Source of the DNA: a virus
Taxonomy: Duplodnaviria; Caudoviricetes
IMG/VR virus record: IMGVR_UViG_3300049009_000131
Location: 1 to 41,365 of that record
Reading direction: 5' to 3' (one strand)
Length of the DNA stretch: 41,365 bases
A program made the translations under genes and the position numbers. Below the pieces are notes generated by a model. That model saw nothing but the letters and a program-made list of their open reading frames with translations, was not told where the DNA came from and ran no database searches. Of this stretch, positions 254-39,229 are shown in pieces. Numbering within the stretch: the stretch's first letter is position 1; every line of letters starts with the position of its first letter.

Positions 254-291
254 CGATTTTGAAAAATGGCCCTTTACTACAACTATAGAGG
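254..291 (+). promoter_or_regulatory. Putative phage RNAP promoter for the virion module (+1 probably G288)
   Basis: CGATTTTGAAAAATGGCCCTTTACTACAACT matches 23832-23862 at 27/31 positions; followed by ATAGAGG, resembling the T7-type ACTATAG initiation region. Confidence 0.75.
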
Positions 292-12638: not shown

Positions 12639-14669
12639 ATGGCGAAGTACAAGAAGATGACCGACGACGAAATCCTAGTCGCTATCGAAAAGGGCGTCAG
12701 GCAGGCGGTTGGTTATCACGACTCGAAGCTATCCCGCGAACGTCAGGATGTCCTTGAGTACTTCCACGGGGAGCGTCCGAAACCCCAGCACGCAGGTAAC
12801 TCCCGCTACGTCTCGATGGACGTCTATGACGCCGTGGAGAGTTCCAAGGCGGTACTGTTGGAAACCTTCGCTGCCGGGAACCAGATCGTAGAGTTCGTAC
12901 CTAACGGACCTGAAGATACCGTCCCGGCTCGTGTAAGCTCCCTGTACACCGACTACGCCATCCATAGCCAGAACAACGGCTACAAGGTGTTCTCGGATGT
13001 CATCACTGACGGTCTCCTTGCCCGCATTGGTATCGCTAAGGTCTATTGGGACAAGCGCGAAGAGAAGGTCGAGGAGGAGTTCGAGAAGCTTCCAGTTGAG
13101 CAGTTCGACATGCTCATCTCACAACCTGACGTCGAGCTTGAGGAATACGAACTTGACGAAGATGGCCTTGTGTCCGGTGAAATCTGCCGTATCAAGGATA
13201 CCTCTCAGGTCTGCATTGCGACCATTCCGCCCGAAGAGTTCCTGATCAACAGTGGTGCCAAAGACATCGATGATGCCTTTTTCGTGGCCCACCGTGTCGA
13301 AAAGACCCGTAGTGAACTCATTGCCGAAGGGTACGACAAGAAGATCGTAGAGAAGCTTTACGATGACGAAGCGAACTTCTACGACGAAGAGAGGGACGCT
13401 CGCCTTCGTGAGATCGAAGACGATAGCATTGGCACCGCCGACTTCCTTCAGGATCAGGTCCGCAAGGTTACCGTTTATGAGTGCTACGTCACTCTTGATA
13501 TTGAAGGTACTGGCGAAGCGCGTCTTTGGAAGATCATTAAGGCAGGCGGTCAGGTCCTCGACAAGGAAGAGGTCAATCGCAAGCCCTTCGTAACCTTCGT
13601 TCCCCTTCCGATACCCCATAGCTTCTATGGCTCAAACTTTGCCAAGAAGATCATTCCGATCCAGAACGCTCGCACGGTTCTCATGCGCGGCATCTTGGAT
13701 CACACCGTCATCACGAATAACCCACGCTATCAGGTCGTCAAGGGCTCGCTGGTCAACCCCCGTGAACTCCTTGATAACCGCATTGGCGGTGTCGTTAACG
13801 TGACACGCCCAGACGGTATCATGCCGCTCACTCAGGCATCGTTGAACCCCTTCGTGTTCCAGACCATCCAGTTGCTGGACGAGGACAAGGAAGATACCAC
13901 GGGTATCTCCAAGTTGTCGCAAGGCCTCAACAAGGACGCCATTTCGAAGCAGAACAGTGGCGCTATGGTTGAACAGCTTGTTGGCCTTAGCCAGCAGCGC
14001 CAGAAGATCATCGCCCGTAACTTCGCGAACCACTTCCTTGTCCCGTTGTATCTTGAGGTCTACCGCCTCGTGATCGAGAACGAGGACAAGCAGAAGGTCG
14101 TGGAGCTTGCTGGCGAGTGGATGGAGATCACTCCGTCCCGTTGGTCCGAGCGCCTTGATGTCCAAGTGGCCCTCAAGCTGGGCTACGGTGAGCAGGAGAA
14201 CGAGGCCAAGAAGTTCCTCGGGCTCCACCAGATGCTGACCGCTGACCCCGGTGTGCAGCCGCTCTACACCATCGAGAAGCGCTTCAACATGCTCCGGTCG
14301 TTCCTAGAGAAGTCAGGCGTCAAGAACGTCAGTGACTACCTGTTGCCGCCTGATCAAGTACAGCCGCCAGAGCCTGACCCAATGCAGGTTATGCAGATGG
14401 AGATGCAGAAGAAGCAGATGGAGCTTCAGGAGCGTCAGGTCATGGTTGCCGAGATGAAGGCTTCCGAGAGCGCCAAGATGGATCAGATGTCCCACGATCT
14501 TGATCGCATGAAGACCATGATCGAACTTATGGTCAGCCAGCGTGAGATCGAGCGCAAGGAGTTCGATAGCACCACTCGCGCCGAGATCGGCAGGGCGGAG
14601 CTTGAGATACTCAAGTCTCAGGAGCCTCTGGAAACCAAGCAGACACAGATCGTGTCTCCTAACGCATAA
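12639..14669 (+). CDS. Portal protein (large, SU10/LUZ24/P22-like size class)
   Basis: 676 aa after terL; GIAKVYWD, IPPEEFLI, PFV...P.P.PHSFYG, TGISKLSQG; C-terminal Gln/Met coiled-coil barrel. Confidence 0.9.
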   Translation: MAKYKKMTDDEILVAIEKGVRQAVGYHDSKLSRERQDVLEYFHGERPKPQHAGNSRYVSMDVYDAVESSKAVLLETFAAGNQIVEFVPNGPEDTVPARVSSLYTDYAIHSQNNGYKVFSDVITDGLLARIGIAKVYWDKREEKVEEEFEKLPVEQFDMLISQPDVELEEYELDEDGLVSGEICRIKDTSQVCIATIPPEEFLINSGAKDIDDAFFVAHRVEKTRSELIAEGYDKKIVEKLYDDEANFYDEERDARLREIEDDSIGTADFLQDQVRKVTVYECYVTLDIEGTGEARLWKIIKAGGQVLDKEEVNRKPFVTFVPLPIPHSFYGSNFAKKIIPIQNARTVLMRGILDHTVITNNPRYQVVKGSLVNPRELLDNRIGGVVNVTRPDGIMPLTQASLNPFVFQTIQLLDEDKEDTTGISKLSQGLNKDAISKQNSGAMVEQLVGLSQQRQKIIARNFANHFLVPLYLEVYRLVIENEDKQKVVELAGEWMEITPSRWSERLDVQVALKLGYGEQENEAKKFLGLHQMLTADPGVQPLYTIEKRFNMLRSFLEKSGVKNVSDYLLPPDQVQPPEPDPMQVMQMEMQKKQMELQERQVMVAEMKASESAKMDQMSHDLDRMKTMIELMVSQREIERKEFDSTTRAEIGRAELEILKSQEPLETKQTQIVSPNA

Positions 14670-14689
14670 CGACCAAATGGAGAGCAACC

Positions 14690-14971
14690 ATTTCTAACGA
14701 TCTCAACGATGACGAGCGGTTACTGGTAGAGCTTGGTATTCAGGCCCAGTACCTCTTGTCCTCTGAAACATTTAGCAACGCAGTCAACACGCTCAGTGAG
14801 CAGTTCACCAATGCCATCTTGTCCACAAAGCTGGAAGAGACGCATCGGCGCGAACGGCTCTACATGATGCACAGTTGCCTCAATGAACTCGTCGGCATCC
14901 TCAAGTCCCGCGCAGCCGCGAAGGACCAGATTGAGATGAAGCTTAACGACGAAACTGATAACGAAGGATAA
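14690..14971 (+). CDS. Small head-assembly region protein between portal and scaffold; probable non-canonical ATT start (93 aa)
   Basis: Frame is open from a stop at 14660 with no upstream ATG/GTG/TTG before 14756; SD GGAGAG (14679-84) lies 5 nt before in-frame ATT at 14690. Confidence 0.65.
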   Translation: MSNDLNDDERLLVELGIQAQYLLSSETFSNAVNTLSEQFTNAILSTKLEETHRRERLYMMHSCLNELVGILKSRAAAKDQIEMKLNDETDNEG

Positions 14972-14977
14972 CTATTT

Positions 14978-15997
14978 ATGACCTCTATCCCTGCGGACGA
15001 GGCTACCGAAGAAATTGGCGCTCTCAGCCCGAGTGACGCCGAAGACGCTTTCCTTAATCGTTGGAAATCGGACGCTCCCGAGCCATCCGACGACGATGAA
15101 GGGGCAACCGAAGCCGATGATGACGATCTTGAGACCGTCGAAGCTTCGGACGAGGACGACCAGACCGAAAGTGACGATGAGTCCGAAGAGGACCCTGAAG
15201 AGACTCCCGACGACACCAAGAAGAAGGACCAGAAGTACGTCGAAGACGACGATGCTGTGGTCAAGATCAAGGTGGGCGACGAAGAGCTTCAGGCATCCAT
15301 CAAGGACCTCAAGCGCCTCTACGGTCAGGAAGCCGCCCTCACCAAGAAGTCTCAAGAAATCGCGCTGAAGCGCAAGGAAGCTGAAGACACGGGTGCCAAG
15401 CACCTTGTTGGTCTACAGAAGCTCTACGAACGGGCTATGGAACGTTACAAGCCCTACGCTGAAGTAGACATGCTCGTGGCATCCAAGTCGCTGAGTAACG
15501 AAGAGTTCGCGGCTCTGCGTTCGGAAGCCTCTCGATCCTACGAGGACGTTCAGTTCCTGCAAGCTGAACTTGATGGGTTCGTACAGAGCCTTGAGAGCCA
15601 GCGTCAGCAAATGATCCGTGAGCAAGCCAAGAGTGCCATTGAGGTCCTGAAGGACCCCGAGAACGGCATTCCTAAGTGGTCTCAGGAAACCTACGATGAC
15701 ATTCGTAACTACGCCATCCGCAACGGTATGCCCAAGGATATTGTGAACCAGATCGTTGATCCGGTCATCATCAAGACCCTGTGGAAGGCGATGAAGTACG
15801 ACAATGGCAAGACCGTAGCTACCGTGAAGAAGACCAAAGCTCCCAAGAAGGTCCTGAAGTCCAAGTCCTCAAGTGAGACACAGCGTTTCACCAAGACTGA
15901 CGGACACAAGGCCATTAGCAAACTTAGAAGCTCCGGGTCGCGTGACGATGCCGCAAGTGCATTCCTCAGTCGCTGGGGAGTGGACAAAGGCGATTAA
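14978..15997 (+). CDS. Capsid scaffolding protein
   Basis: Very acidic N-terminus, KIKVGDEE...LK..Y.....TKKSQE, coiled coil, C-terminal LR.SGS.DDAA; directly before capsid. Confidence 0.85.
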   Translation: MTSIPADEATEEIGALSPSDAEDAFLNRWKSDAPEPSDDDEGATEADDDDLETVEASDEDDQTESDDESEEDPEETPDDTKKKDQKYVEDDDAVVKIKVGDEELQASIKDLKRLYGQEAALTKKSQEIALKRKEAEDTGAKHLVGLQKLYERAMERYKPYAEVDMLVASKSLSNEEFAALRSEASRSYEDVQFLQAELDGFVQSLESQRQQMIREQAKSAIEVLKDPENGIPKWSQETYDDIRNYAIRNGMPKDIVNQIVDPVIIKTLWKAMKYDNGKTVATVKKTKAPKKVLKSKSSSETQRFTKTDGHKAISKLRSSGSRDDAASAFLSRWGVDKGD

Positions 15998-16036
15998 CAC
16001 AACGCCCCCTAATCATACTTAAGGAATTTTAAAACT

Positions 16037-16951
16037 ATGGCTACTTACACCACCTACGATCAGGTAGGTAAGGCTGAAGACGTCTCCGATATCATCAGCA
16101 ACATTTCGCCTACTAAGACCCCGTTTTCTTCGGGCTTGAAGTCCGAGAAGATTTCTGCCCGTACGTTTGACTGGCAGGAGGATAGCCTTCGCGCCGTTCA
16201 GGTGAACTCGCAGACGGAAGGCTTTACGGCCTCCGATGCGACCCTCACTGCCACTACGCTCCGCTCAAATGTAGCGCAGATTCTGGAGAAGACCATCAAG
16301 GTCTCTGCCACGGCGGATGCAATCAAGACCTACGGGCGCGCACGCGAGACAGCTTACCAACTCAGTAAGGCCGGAGAGGAGCTAAATCGCGACCTCGAGC
16401 ACGCTATGGTTGGTCTTGCGCAGGCTTCCGTGACGGGTAACTCCACCACGGCTCGTAAGATGGCTTCGGCCCTCAACCAGATCGACGCCGCTGCTACGGT
16501 TATTACCGATAGCAACACAGGCACCACGGGCAATCAGGCAGGTCCTCTGACTGAAGCCAACGTGCTTGAGCTTCACCAGAAGCTTTACAACGAAGGTTCC
16601 GATCCCTCGATCCTCATGGTCAAGCCCGCTGACTCGCGCATTGTCGCGGGTTTCACGGGCGTGGCTAACGCTCGCTCGCGTGTGATCAACGATGCTTCCA
16701 CGACCCTCGTGAACAGCATTGAGGTATACATTTCGCCATTCGGCCAGCTTAAGGTCATGCTTAATCGCTTCCTGAAGTCGGACCATGCGCTGATGTATGA
16801 CCCGGACATGTGGCGTAAGGCCGTGCTGCGTCCGTGGTCGCGCACGATGTTGGCGAAATCGGGCGATAACGAAGCCCATCTTATCGTAGGAGAATATTCT
16901 TTGAAGCATATGAACTTCAAGGGCTCTGGTAAGATCACCAATCTGACTTAG
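16037..16951 (+). CDS. Major capsid protein (SU10/DUF5309-like family)
   Basis: SD AAGGA; G.AEDVSDIISNISPT.TPF, WQEDSL, N.AQI..K...VS.TA, Y.SPFG.L....NR, GEYSL. Confidence 0.9.
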   Translation: MATYTTYDQVGKAEDVSDIISNISPTKTPFSSGLKSEKISARTFDWQEDSLRAVQVNSQTEGFTASDATLTATTLRSNVAQILEKTIKVSATADAIKTYGRARETAYQLSKAGEELNRDLEHAMVGLAQASVTGNSTTARKMASALNQIDAAATVITDSNTGTTGNQAGPLTEANVLELHQKLYNEGSDPSILMVKPADSRIVAGFTGVANARSRVINDASTTLVNSIEVYISPFGQLKVMLNRFLKSDHALMYDPDMWRKAVLRPWSRTMLAKSGDNEAHLIVGEYSLKHMNFKGSGKITNLT

Positions 16952-16965
16952 GTCTAACTACACTT

Positions 16966-17065
16966 GGCAAAAGGGCCGGGATAATAGCCGGATACTAAAA
17001 GCGAAGAGAGGAAGCGCATTGCTCTCCTGCGTGTAACCTCTCGCACCCTTTCTGCCGTTTTATTT
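16966..17065 (+). ncRNA. Putative structured RNA (three-way junction plus U-rich tail) in the capsid 3' UTR; may also act as terminator
   Basis: P1 GGCAAAAGGG(16966-75)/CCCTTTCTGCC(17046-56); P2 CCGG/CCGG; P3 GAGAGG/CCTCTC plus GCGCA/TGCGT closing loop TTGCTCTCC(17019-27); followed by GTTTTATTT. Confidence 0.6.
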
Positions 17066-17076
17066 AAGAGCTTCTA

Positions 17077-17589
17077 TTGGAAATCACGTCTCGCGCGGAA
17101 GCGCTTGAGCGTGGGTTGACCTATTACTTCACTGGTAAGCCGTGTGTTAACGGACACGTTAGTAAACGTAACACAAAGAACAGATGTTGCTACGTCTGTG
17201 TATCTCTAGCACGAGATGCTTGGAGCAACGCGAATAAAGAGAAATGTCGCGAGTACTCAAAGCGCTTCCGCCTTAACTCCCCTGAAAAACGACAGGTGAT
17301 TTCTGCGCGTTGGAAAGCGCGTAATCCAGATAAGGTAAATGCGCAGTGCGCTAAGCGTAGAGCATCGAAGCATTCGGCTACGCCCCCTTGGTTAACCAAC
17401 GCTCACCTCAATCAAATTACGTCTTATTACACCTATGCGAAACTGCGGGAACGACTCACAAGCGTTGAGCATCACGTAGATCACATAGTCCCAATTCTAG
17501 GGAAGTCCGTTTGCGGACTACATGTTCCGTGGAACCTTCAGGTCATTACTGCGACTGAAAACCTTCGGAAGAACAACCGTTTCAACTAG
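17077..17589 (+). CDS. Free-standing HNH endonuclease
   Basis: SRAEA...YFTGKPC..GH N-terminus; HHVDHIVP...VCGLHVPWNLQVITATENLRKNN HNH motif; lower GC than neighbours. Confidence 0.85.
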   Translation: MEITSRAEALERGLTYYFTGKPCVNGHVSKRNTKNRCCYVCVSLARDAWSNANKEKCREYSKRFRLNSPEKRQVISARWKARNPDKVNAQCAKRRASKHSATPPWLTNAHLNQITSYYTYAKLRERLTSVEHHVDHIVPILGKSVCGLHVPWNLQVITATENLRKNNRFN

Positions 17590-23831: not shown

Positions 23832-23870
23832 CGATTTCGAAAAGCAGCCCTTTACTACAACTTAAGCAGA
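23832..23870 (+). promoter_or_regulatory. Putative phage RNAP promoter upstream of the RNAP gene (+1 probably G23866)
   Basis: Second copy of the 31-bp motif at 254-284. Confidence 0.7.
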
Positions 23871-38330: not shown

Positions 38331-38422
38331 GGCGCAAGCCTGTGGCTCGCTGAGCGAATGATTTCTGAATGCCGATCCTTGGAGGAACAAATGTTTCCAA
38401 CGAGGATCGGTGTTTTTCGGGC

Positions 38423-38451
38423 TTGCAATGGAACAAAAGAAGAACTACGGT
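38423..38451 (+). promoter_or_regulatory. Sigma70 promoter with an alphaproteobacterial-type LexA box in the spacer
   Basis: TTGCAA-N17-TACGGT; GAAC-AAAAGAA-GAAC at 38431-38445. Confidence 0.7.
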
Positions 38452-38480
38452 AACAAATCCTAACAAGGAGTTTGGTCCAA

Positions 38481-38708
38481 ATGATTTCTGAATGCCGCAT
38501 AAATGACGACCAAATCGCCTCTGAATGCTGGCAAAATGACATACGAATGCTCGCCAATCTGCTCATGGATATCGACCTGATCAGTCGCAGTGGTCACATG
38601 GACCCAGCGGTATATGGGGCAATCGTAAGCCTCGTGGCGATGCACATGGATCGGATTGCAGATGAATGGGAAGCAGCGCTACCCCACGGCAGCGTGAATG
38701 CCGCGTGA
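38481..38708 (+). CDS. Small protein under a LexA-boxed promoter; candidate antirepressor
   Basis: SD AAGGAG at 38465-70; 75 aa; 5' part overlaps the 11-bp array, so coding status is less certain. Confidence 0.5.
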   Translation: MISECRINDDQIASECWQNDIRMLANLLMDIDLISRSGHMDPAVYGAIVSLVAMHMDRIADEWEAALPHGSVNAA

Positions 38709-38821
38709 ATGCAAAGCGAATGCCCACTGAATGCCCACTAAACGCTCGCTGAATGCCAAGCAGATCGCAGGCAAAGCCCGCTATGAATGCCTACTGAATG
38801 CCACATGAATGCCGAAAGAAT

Positions 38822-39229
38822 CTAGGGCAAACTGTTACGCGCCTTCAGTATCTCCATTGCCATTGTTTTTGCCGCCGCGATATAGGGGGCCTTAAGCGTC
38901 TTTCCGTTGTCGTGTACTACACAAGGCCCCGCGCTTCCCGGTTTCCCAACGAGTTCCACGGCTATACCTGAGTAGCTTTCGTCACCATTATATAGCATCC
39001 AATAGTCATCGGCGTCTGGTATGAACACAGGCGGCAAGGGCTGCGGCAGCTTTCGCTTGTCCGGGGGTTCTAAGTAGTTGTCGCCTTTGTCTATCATTTG
39101 CCAACACGATTGGCACGTATGCGCTACCCATGAGAAGTGATACACGCGATCACCATTGCCACACTTGGGGCAATAGATCACTCGGCCCTCCTGAGGGGCA
39201 CGGGTATAACGATTAACTCGTTTTGTCAT
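38822..39229 (-). CDS. Hypothetical protein with Zn-ribbon (CPKC...CQSC)
   Basis: Two CxxC motifs; coupled to the upstream minus-strand ORF. Confidence 0.65.
   Translation of the reverse strand: MTKRVNRYTRAPQEGRVIYCPKCGNGDRVYHFSWVAHTCQSCWQMIDKGDNYLEPPDKRKLPQPLPPVFIPDADDYWMLYNGDESYSGIAVELVGKPGSAGPCVVHDNGKTLKAPYIAAAKTMAMEILKARNSLP

What the first reader, a model, noticed from the sequence alone, without database searches (positions are those of the whole stretch)
14675..17065. Long-range kissing-loop RNA pair bracketing the scaffold-capsid unit
Seen: the capsid 3' UTR folds into a three-way junction whose apical loop is exactly TTGCTCTCC (17019-27). Its perfect reverse complement GGAGAGCAA (14679-87) is the SD and loop of the hairpin AAATGG-AGAGCAA-CCATTT just after the portal stop, 2.3 kb upstream. 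A 9-mer match alone could be chance, but both partners are loop-exposed, intergenic and flank the small gene-scaffold-capsid block. Inference: an RNA-based head-gene control system, either cis 5'-3' pairing that defines or stabilises a capsid mRNA, or a 3' UTR-derived sRNA feeding back on translation to set scaffold/capsid/portal stoichiometry. A structural pRNA-like role is a less likely alternative. I do not know of a description of this element.
Basis: partly seen in the sequence, partly recalled or inferred. Interest (0 to 1): 0.85.

Follow-up and report, generated by a model that had tools for sequence, protein, structure and literature searches.

The report
Capsid RNA loop masks assembly gene
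Right behind the major capsid gene, this uncultured phage and many relatives carry a hairpin whose stem varies freely while its loop stays complementary to the ribosome-binding site of a small gene next to the scaffold gene, so the tail of the capsid message likely pairs with that site and would turn down a probable head-assembly helper, although the RNA and its effect have not been observed.

Summary
The loop (17019-27) and its only perfect complement in the genome (14679-87) are at the stated coordinates.

The loop is conserved in SU10-type podophages while the stems are rewritten. Of 81 capsid clusters (90% identity), 46 have the full loop and 42 of these keep a matching site at the small gene between portal and scaffold. 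None of the 28 loop-less clusters has the site. GGAGAG marks that gene's start in 48 of 78 loci, against 0-3 of 71-93 for five neighbouring genes. Several compensatory loop/target changes occur. An unrelated capsid lineage shows the same design.

The 'kissing loop' is not general: the 5' hairpin is weak and not conserved, and the three-way junction is local to this clade.

Against the reading: gain/loss contrasts are too few for significance, some clades keep the loop without the target, and other genes share the motif. No transcript evidence was obtained.

Best reading: an anti-Shine-Dalgarno loop at the 3' end of the capsid mRNA that represses a small assembly gene (0.55). It was not found in Rfam or in my literature searches.

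The parts
12639..14669 (+). Portal gene (SU10 type), upstream boundary of the block
   Evidence: Pfam PF23899, E 2.9e-189
14675..14693 (+). Weak predicted hairpin that pairs two G's of the Shine-Dalgarno site with the bases before the probable AUU start; same sequence in L001, not a family feature
14679..14687 (+). Target site GGAGAGCAA: Shine-Dalgarno region of the small gene and exact complement of the loop
   Evidence: conservation
14677..14697 (+). Six-codon ORF (MESNHF) overlapping the target and the start of the small gene in another frame; same in L001; role unknown
14690..14971 (+). Small conserved gene, 93 aa, three predicted helices, no family name. Start inferred at the non-canonical ATT 14690: the frame has no ATG/GTG/TTG before 14756, yet homology starts near residue 5
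   Evidence: no Pfam or PHROG hit; only uncharacterised phage proteins match the fold
14978..15997 (+). Head scaffolding protein gene
   Evidence: PHROG 3927 and 9013, E about 1e-21
16037..16951 (+). Major capsid protein gene (SU10 type)
   Evidence: Pfam PF17236, E 2.8e-81
16966..17065 (+). Structured 3' element: three-way junction 16966-17056 followed by a U-rich tail 17058-17065
   Evidence: 6 of 24 consensus pairs change on both sides among 5 sequences
17019..17027 (+). Apical anti-Shine-Dalgarno loop UUGCUCUCC; family core GCUCUCCUU

Best explanation
A hairpin right after the major capsid gene displays a conserved loop that is complementary to the ribosome-binding site of the small gene ahead of the scaffold gene, and as RNA it likely pairs with that site and would block translation of this probable head-assembly helper as capsid message builds up. 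Shown: position, loop conservation against rewritten stems, complementarity, gene specificity among neighbours, and some compensatory changes. Inferred: (1) the hairpin ends the capsid transcript or survives as its stable 3' fragment, like the T7 T-phi terminator behind gene 10 (recalled); (2) the pairing is loop to mostly single-stranded target, probably between two molecules; (3) the effect is repression, as for C-rich loop sRNAs; (4) the small protein is a non-virion assembly helper needed early and in small amounts, so the circuit would give a pulse of helper and then shut it off. In this window the gene is further damped by a probable AUU start held in a weak hairpin.
For: GGAGAG lies at the small gene's start in 48 of 78 loop-bearing loci, against 0 of 93 (capsid), 0 of 93 (scaffold), 0 of 77 (adaptor), 0 of 71 (portal), 3 of 87 (next gene), and 0 of 29 small genes of loop-less loci. 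The small gene is the best partner among core genes in 64 of 76 loci. At 90% capsid identity, 42 of 46 full-loop clusters have a strong (32) or weak (10) site and 0 of 28 loop-less clusters do. Across 15 loop-bearing near-complete genomes the small gene is the top family, 10 of 14. Compensatory changes occur at four loop positions: G:C to U:A (L140, L172, L163, L166, L044), C:G to G:C (L159, L162), U:A to A:U (L107) and G:C (L046), U:A to A:U (L080) and C:G (L140/L172, L166). Mean paired run is 9.06 against 8.57 +/- 0.12 shuffled, 0 of 5000, relatedness not corrected. Some targets keep the 3' part that 16S rRNA does not need (GAGAGC, or AGC after a bulge or mismatch) even where the SD core is broken: L072, L076, L188, L198, L051, L229, L075. 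A protein-blind pattern scan put 13 of 24 hits right behind an SU10-type capsid gene. An unrelated capsid lineage has a CUCCUU loop after the capsid in 49 of 79 loci, matched by AAAGGAG at two small genes (19 of 21, 9 of 11) but at 0 of 45 capsid genes; the variable flanking base pairs in 14 of 16 and 8 of 10 cases.
Against: Presence/absence is not phylogenetically independent evidence: 3 of 3 pairs agree, p 0.25, and with more taxa only 2 supported pairs remain, p 1. Four full-loop and six short-loop clusters lack the site. The L185/L266-L287 clade keeps a CUCUC loop with no complement at the small gene, and no complement longer than 7 nt was found outside the hairpin in G001 and G003. Many loop or target changes are not compensated, for example C.C at position -1 in 7 of 63 combinations and most changes at -3. 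In whole genomes the small gene ranks in the top five in only 8 of 14; others rank 7, 7, 13, 15, 16 and 47. GGAGAG is also commoner at other genes of loop-bearing genomes (46 of 811 against 5 of 376). A U-rich tail follows the stem in only 24 of 93 loci, and the terminator scan did not call the window's element. In the second lineage, loop-less loci also keep AAGGAG at the matched genes (4 of 5, 3 of 6). The direction of the effect is untested.
Confidence: 0.55

Rival explanations
1. Multi-target late switch: the loop pairs with a whole class of AGGAGA(G)-type ribosome-binding sites, of which the small gene is one; RNA polymerase, primase and the gene after the capsid would also be turned down late in infection.
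For: GGAGAG or GAGAGC at the RNA polymerase family in 5 of 14 and at the primase family in 5 of 15 loop-bearing genomes, against 0 of 10 primases in the other genomes. The window's own RNA polymerase gene has GGAGAGAG. G009 has nine GGAGAG starts. The next gene has GGAGA in 31 of 87. Clades that lost the small-gene site keep the loop.
Against: No other family comes near the small gene. The GC extension is rare elsewhere (GGAGAGC 13 of 811). The excess may be a host SD dialect (recalled: GGAGA-type sites are common in some proteobacteria).
Confidence: 0.15
2. The loop is kept for another ligand (a protein, a nuclease decoy, or a mimic of the 16S rRNA 3' end), and the matching SD is a parallel lineage habit.
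For: The loop core CUCCUUA equals the 16S tail (recalled). Loops persist without the site. Gains and losses are too few to exclude shared ancestry.
Against: It does not explain why only one of six neighbouring genes carries the complement, nor the compensatory changes at four positions and in a second lineage.
Confidence: 0.12
3. Cis 5'-3' pairing within one small-gene-to-capsid transcript stabilises or activates it.
For: The partners bracket the block on the same strand. In the window the pairing would open a hairpin that hides the probable AUU start.
Against: Pairing covers the SD itself. The 5' hairpin is not conserved (15 of 80). No promoter-like repeat was found ahead of the small gene. 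Extra genes sit between portal and small gene in some loci while the site stays with the small gene (L002, L100, L046, L107, L230).
Confidence: 0.11
4. Local pseudoknot: the loop pairs with the SD of the gene directly after the hairpin and limits read-through translation.
For: That gene has GGAGA in 31 of 87 loci and is the best partner in 8 of 76; L003 and L107 have GGAGAGC there.
Against: No such site in the window, L001, L002 or L100. GGAGAG occurs there in only 3 of 87.
Confidence: 0.05
5. Structural pRNA-like role at the portal.
For: Three-way junction in the window's clade.
Against: Only the loop is conserved; most lineages have a plain hairpin. The side loop of the window's element is not complementary to the apical loop (sequence).
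Confidence: 0.02

Closest known systems
C-rich loop anti-SD sRNAs: Staphylococcus aureus RNAIII and RsaE, Salmonella CyaR (PMC2790875, passages seen)
   Same: A conserved unpaired C/U-rich loop on variable helices binds a Shine-Dalgarno site and blocks initiation.
   Different: Those are stand-alone bacterial sRNAs. This element is the tail of a phage capsid gene region and matches a gene of the same phage operon. No sequence relation by Rfam.
3'UTR-derived sRNAs, e.g. CisR of Vibrio cholerae acting on the CTXphi cep mRNA (PMC13250501, search listing and start of abstract only)
   Same: The 3' end of an mRNA acts on another message that encodes a phage gene.
   Different: CisR is host-encoded. 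Here the RNA is phage-encoded, and release as a separate RNA is not shown.
SviR sRNA of the PLE satellite acting on ICP1 gp120 (10.1101/2022.04.08.487710, passages seen)
   Same: Base-pairing occlusion of the ribosome-binding site of a small gene beside the capsid operon with a proposed role in head morphogenesis.
   Different: SviR is a satellite's weapon against the phage; this element would be self-regulation by the phage.
P22 scaffolding-protein translational autoregulation (10.1101/2022.12.13.520362, one passage seen)
   Same: Post-transcriptional control of a head-assembly factor.
   Different: It is protein-mediated and acts on the scaffold gene; here it is RNA-RNA pairing and the target is the gene before the scaffold.
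T7 T-phi terminator behind gene 10 (recalled, no call)
   Same: A hairpin directly after the major capsid gene of a phage with a T7-like RNA polymerase.
   Different: No regulatory pairing of the T-phi loop is known to me; here the loop, not the stem, is the conserved part.

Membership tests
Any Rfam 15 family | Covariance-model match at the gathering score | tested here: not met
   None in the window; best local E 7.8. In 37 related loci only group I introns and tRNAs reached the gathering score.
Kissing-loop pair | Both partners are loops of conserved hairpins | tested here: not met
   Target in a predicted loop in 15 of 80 loci; in the window two of nine bases are in the stem.
Kissing-loop pair | Complementarity kept through compensatory change | tested here: met
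   Four positions with changes on both sides, beside many uncompensated ones; relatedness not corrected.
C-rich loop anti-SD regulators (RNAIII/RsaE/CyaR type) | Conserved unpaired C/U-rich loop on variable stems | tested here: met
   93 of 129 loci; 53 distinct 5' stem 10-mers.
C-rich loop anti-SD regulators (RNAIII/RsaE/CyaR type) | Complementary to the SD of a specific mRNA | tested here: met
C-rich loop anti-SD regulators (RNAIII/RsaE/CyaR type) | Exists as an expressed RNA | tested here: inconclusive
   Only assembled contigs were available; they cover the whole region and cannot show an RNA's ends or level.
C-rich loop anti-SD regulators (RNAIII/RsaE/CyaR type) | Blocks 30S binding and lowers target protein | not testable with these tools
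   Needs toeprint and reporter.
3'UTR-derived sRNA | Lies at the 3' end of an mRNA and shares its intrinsic terminator | tested here: inconclusive
   Position met. U-rich tail in 24 of 93; not called in the window. In some lineages a plain terminator hairpin precedes it.
3'UTR-derived sRNA | Released by processing or an internal promoter; chaperone-bound | not testable with these tools
   No RNA end data; no promoter repeat found nearby.
phi29-type prohead RNA (features recalled) | Conserved multi-helix fold with two mutually complementary loops | tested here: not met
   Junction only in the window's clade (against 19, 45, 49); the two loops are not complementary (sequence).

The most novel reading that the evidence does not exclude
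Tailed phages of unrelated capsid lineages have repeatedly turned the hairpin at the end of their most abundant message into an anti-ribosome-binding-site loop, and have tagged a few small non-virion assembly helpers with the matching sequence. The capsid mRNA would then act as its own timer for morphogenesis: a general, undescribed RNA layer of control over virion assembly that also points out unknown assembly chaperones by their ribosome-binding site.
Probability: 0.4. Interest if true: 0.88.

Novelty: new variant of a known kind. Interest (0 to 1): 0.72.

Why it matters
How phages set the amounts and timing of head-assembly factors from long late operons is known for few cases, such as P22 scaffold autoregulation. 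This element offers a small, directly testable RNA-RNA mechanism with natural compensatory alleles already in hand. It is spread over dozens of SU10-type phage clusters and is echoed in an unrelated capsid lineage. It also singles out an uncharacterised gene, kept between portal and scaffold in all five annotated phage records inspected, as one whose dose likely matters for assembly.

Tried and rejected
Rfam searches: no family.

Transcript evidence: three runs with small word shares were laid. All are contigs, the RNA run covers all 30 bins and may hold DNA, so they say nothing on ends, level or habitat.

Promoter mapping: the sigma-70 scan gave fewer sites than shuffles. One 15-base repeat occurs only at 270 and 23848. 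No repeat shared by three upstream regions was found in the window. Cis versus trans stays open.

Tree-based contrasts did not reach significance; the careful tree did not finish and quick trees were used.

RNAalifold on the five-sequence alignment mis-paired the apical arm because of alignment shifts, so single folds were used.

Function of the small protein: Pfam, PHROGs, PDB Foldseek and the protein atlas gave no named family. BFVD hits to N4-like phage proteins have E above 0.1 and are a lead only. No complex prediction was sent, as adjacency was the only ground.

A +1 frameshift from the six-codon ORF into the small gene was considered and set aside: no slippery site is evident, and the SD spacing fits an ATT start.

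Start codons were picked by a simple rule and are wrong in some rows. In one search the window's loop string was truncated, so its rank of 5 is not meaningful. L104 is probably a false 'full loop' call, and the L056 clade's real start lies upstream of the window examined, where a weak site exists.

Five annotated phage records (Venkman, HTVC106P, ctXG6705, LAh_8, A24) showed no such loop in the 140 bases examined.

Full report
Context. The window is a 41,365-base virus record, 99% complete. It encodes an SU10-type portal, capsid and adaptor, a T7-like RNA polymerase, primase-helicase and DNA polymerase, and an integrase. The order is terminase, portal (12639-14669), small gene, scaffold (14978-15997), major capsid (16037-16951).

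Observation. Both 9-mers are at the stated places and are the only exact copies in the genome. The 3' region folds into a three-way junction with the 9-mer as apical loop in the centroid structure (z -2.37). The 5' hairpin is weak (z -1.41 in 31 nt, +0.38 in 61 nt) and holds two of the nine target bases in its stem. The predicted duplex is -15.9 kcal/mol, with opening costs of 4.27 and 0.36. The target is the Shine-Dalgarno region of the small gene. Its frame has no ATG, GTG or TTG before 14756 but is homologous to relatives from about residue 5, so the start is most likely ATT at 14690, five bases after GGAGAG. AUU starts are known from E. coli infC and pcnB (recalled).

Conservation of the loop. 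Loci of related capsid genes were gathered from viral, metagenome and genome contigs. In a first de-duplicated set, 93 of 129 loci had a hairpin after the capsid stop with a loop core close to GCUCUCCUU, on 53 distinct 5' stem 10-mers. The three-way junction folds in the window, L001, L002 and L003; most other lineages show one long hairpin, sometimes behind a plain terminator-like hairpin. A pattern scan blind to proteins placed 13 of 24 hits directly behind an SU10-type capsid gene.

Specificity of the target. In loop-bearing loci, GGAGAG lies at the start of the small gene in 48 of 78. The counts for the neighbours are capsid 0 of 93, scaffold 0 of 93, adaptor 0 of 77, portal 0 of 71 and next gene 3 of 87; in loop-less loci the small gene has it in 0 of 29. 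The small gene is the best partner in 64 of 76 loci (starts picked by rule, some wrong). With 230 usable loci clustered at 90% capsid identity (81 clusters), 46 have the full loop (32 strong site, 10 weak, 4 none), 7 a short CUCUC loop (1 strong, 6 none) and 28 no loop (0 with a site). The site stays with the small gene when other genes are inserted behind the portal. In 15 loop-bearing near-complete genomes the small gene is the top family (10 of 14), ahead of RNA polymerase (5 of 14), primase (5 of 15) and DNA polymerase (3 of 14). It ranked in the top five of about 50 genes in only 8 of 14 genomes, and GGAGAG is commoner at other genes of loop-bearing genomes than of seven loop-less ones (46 of 811 against 5 of 376). 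Further targets or a host SD dialect therefore remain possible.

Covariation. Of 93 loop-bearing loci, 80 had a core to anchor on, giving 63 distinct loop/target combinations; the core positions pair by construction. Outside them, changes on both sides occur at four positions in about six lineages (listed under best explanation). The mean paired run is 9.06 against 8.57 +/- 0.12 in shuffles (0 of 5000), without correction for relatedness. Many changes are not compensated, for example C.C at -1 in 7 of 63, U.U or C.U at -2 in 4, and most C's at -3. Several targets keep the AGC part, which the 16S tail (recalled) would not need, although the SD core is broken or bulged. Tree-based gain/loss contrasts are too few: 3 of 3, p 0.25; 2 supported pairs, p 1. 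Presence/absence alone is therefore not independent proof.

Counter-examples. The L185/L266-L287 clade keeps a hairpin with a CUCUC loop and U tail, but its small gene has no matching site, and G001 and G003 hold no complement longer than 7 nt outside the hairpin. L272/L278 have a 6-base match at the scaffold gene instead. The L062 clade has the full loop with a poor site at the small gene but GGAGAGCA at other starts. The loop can thus outlive this target.

Geometry. The target lies in a predicted hairpin loop in only 15 of 80 loci, so the conserved interaction is loop to ribosome-binding site, not loop to loop. A U-rich tail follows the stem in 24 of 93. No late promoter could be placed and the RNA data were uninformative, so cis versus trans and the direction of the effect are inferred.

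A second lineage. One hit of the pattern scan (L307) lay behind an unrelated capsid (Pfam PF25209). Among its relatives, 49 of 79 loci have CUCCUU within 110 bases of the capsid stop, mostly as the loop of a long variable hairpin. AAAGGAG marks two small genes (19 of 21 and 9 of 11) but 0 of 45 capsid genes, which use GGAGG. The base next to the core pairs in 14 of 16 and 8 of 10 distinct cases, with A:U, U:A and G:C all present. Loop-less loci there also keep AAGGAG (4 of 5, 3 of 6). Earlier AI notes of this scan report like elements in other phages; I did not test them and do not count them as support.

The regulated gene. It encodes a three-helix protein (pLDDT 93.7) with no named family; confident fold matches are uncharacterised phage proteins. 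A gene of this size lies between portal and scaffold in all five annotated records inspected. In the SU10 proteomics passage seen, gp6, gp8 and gp9 are listed and gp7 is not among the rows shown (PMC4281155, passages, table cut). A non-virion assembly helper is the likely role; this is inference from synteny.

Known systems and novelty. It works like C-rich loop anti-SD sRNAs (PMC2790875, passages) and like SviR on ICP1 gp120 (passages), but it is not a member of any Rfam family and fails the kissing-loop and pRNA tests. Ten literature searches were run; seven aimed at such an element returned no description, judged from listings and abstract starts. PMC5737381 has no 'capsid' in its main text and its supplement could not be read. 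In PMC10690425, four of nine supplementary files were searched; the one DUF5309 entry is a candidate upstream of the capsid gene, and mmc1-mmc5 could not be read. A candidate listing there cannot be excluded. PMC11445570 and 10.64898/2026.07.01.735769 (passages) held nothing on it.

Verdict. The element is real and conserved. Pairing with the small gene's ribosome-binding site is well supported by comparison (about 0.75, my estimate). Repression by the capsid mRNA tail is the most likely mechanism (0.55). New variant of a known kind; interest 0.72.

Noticed in passing
L376-L455 (e.g. L376:5890-5960, L388, L421, L436): An unrelated phage family with PF25209 capsids has a long variable hairpin with a CUCCUUU loop right after the capsid gene, matched by AAAGGAG at a 113-aa gene before the capsid and a 130-aa gene further down; no Rfam match.
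   Followed up: partly
window 14677-14697 and 14690: The small gene likely starts at a non-canonical ATT, overlapped by a six-codon ORF in another frame; both are identical in L001.
   Followed up: partly
window 17077-17589: An endonuclease VII/HNH-like gene (PHROG 1035) sits right behind the hairpin; in the 98%-identical relative L001 the next gene follows directly, so it looks like a recent insertion.
   Followed up: partly
L058:2245-2462, L064:1338-1571, L152:4643-4867, L100:4778-5016: Group I introns interrupt the major capsid gene in several relatives.
   Followed up: no
L267-L287, L185 (about 100-200 bases after the capsid stop): A clade keeps a hairpin with loop CCACUCUC or CUACUCUC and a U tail without any target at the small gene; partner unknown.
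   Followed up: partly
L013, L016, L018 (after the portal stop and after the capsid stop): Near-identical hairpins (CCTTTGGAT...GTCCAAGGG) stand at both ends of the small gene-scaffold-capsid block, perhaps a repeated protein-binding or processing site.
   Followed up: no
L310:3501-3522, L314:3501-3522, L322: A hairpin with the same loop stands just ahead of a phage tRNA cluster, with no capsid gene nearby.
   Followed up: no
L341 (G009, about 16300-17500, minus strand): Four neighbouring small genes share the start motif GGAGAGTAACC, a strong predicted match to that phage's loop.
   Followed up: no
window 270-284 and 23848-23862: An exact 15-base repeat ahead of the ORF at 689 and of the RNA polymerase gene, possibly a phage promoter.
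   Followed up: partly
window 38357-38822: A cluster of degenerate TGAATGC repeats with 11-base spacing in a gene-poor stretch, possibly an origin or protein-binding array.
   Followed up: no
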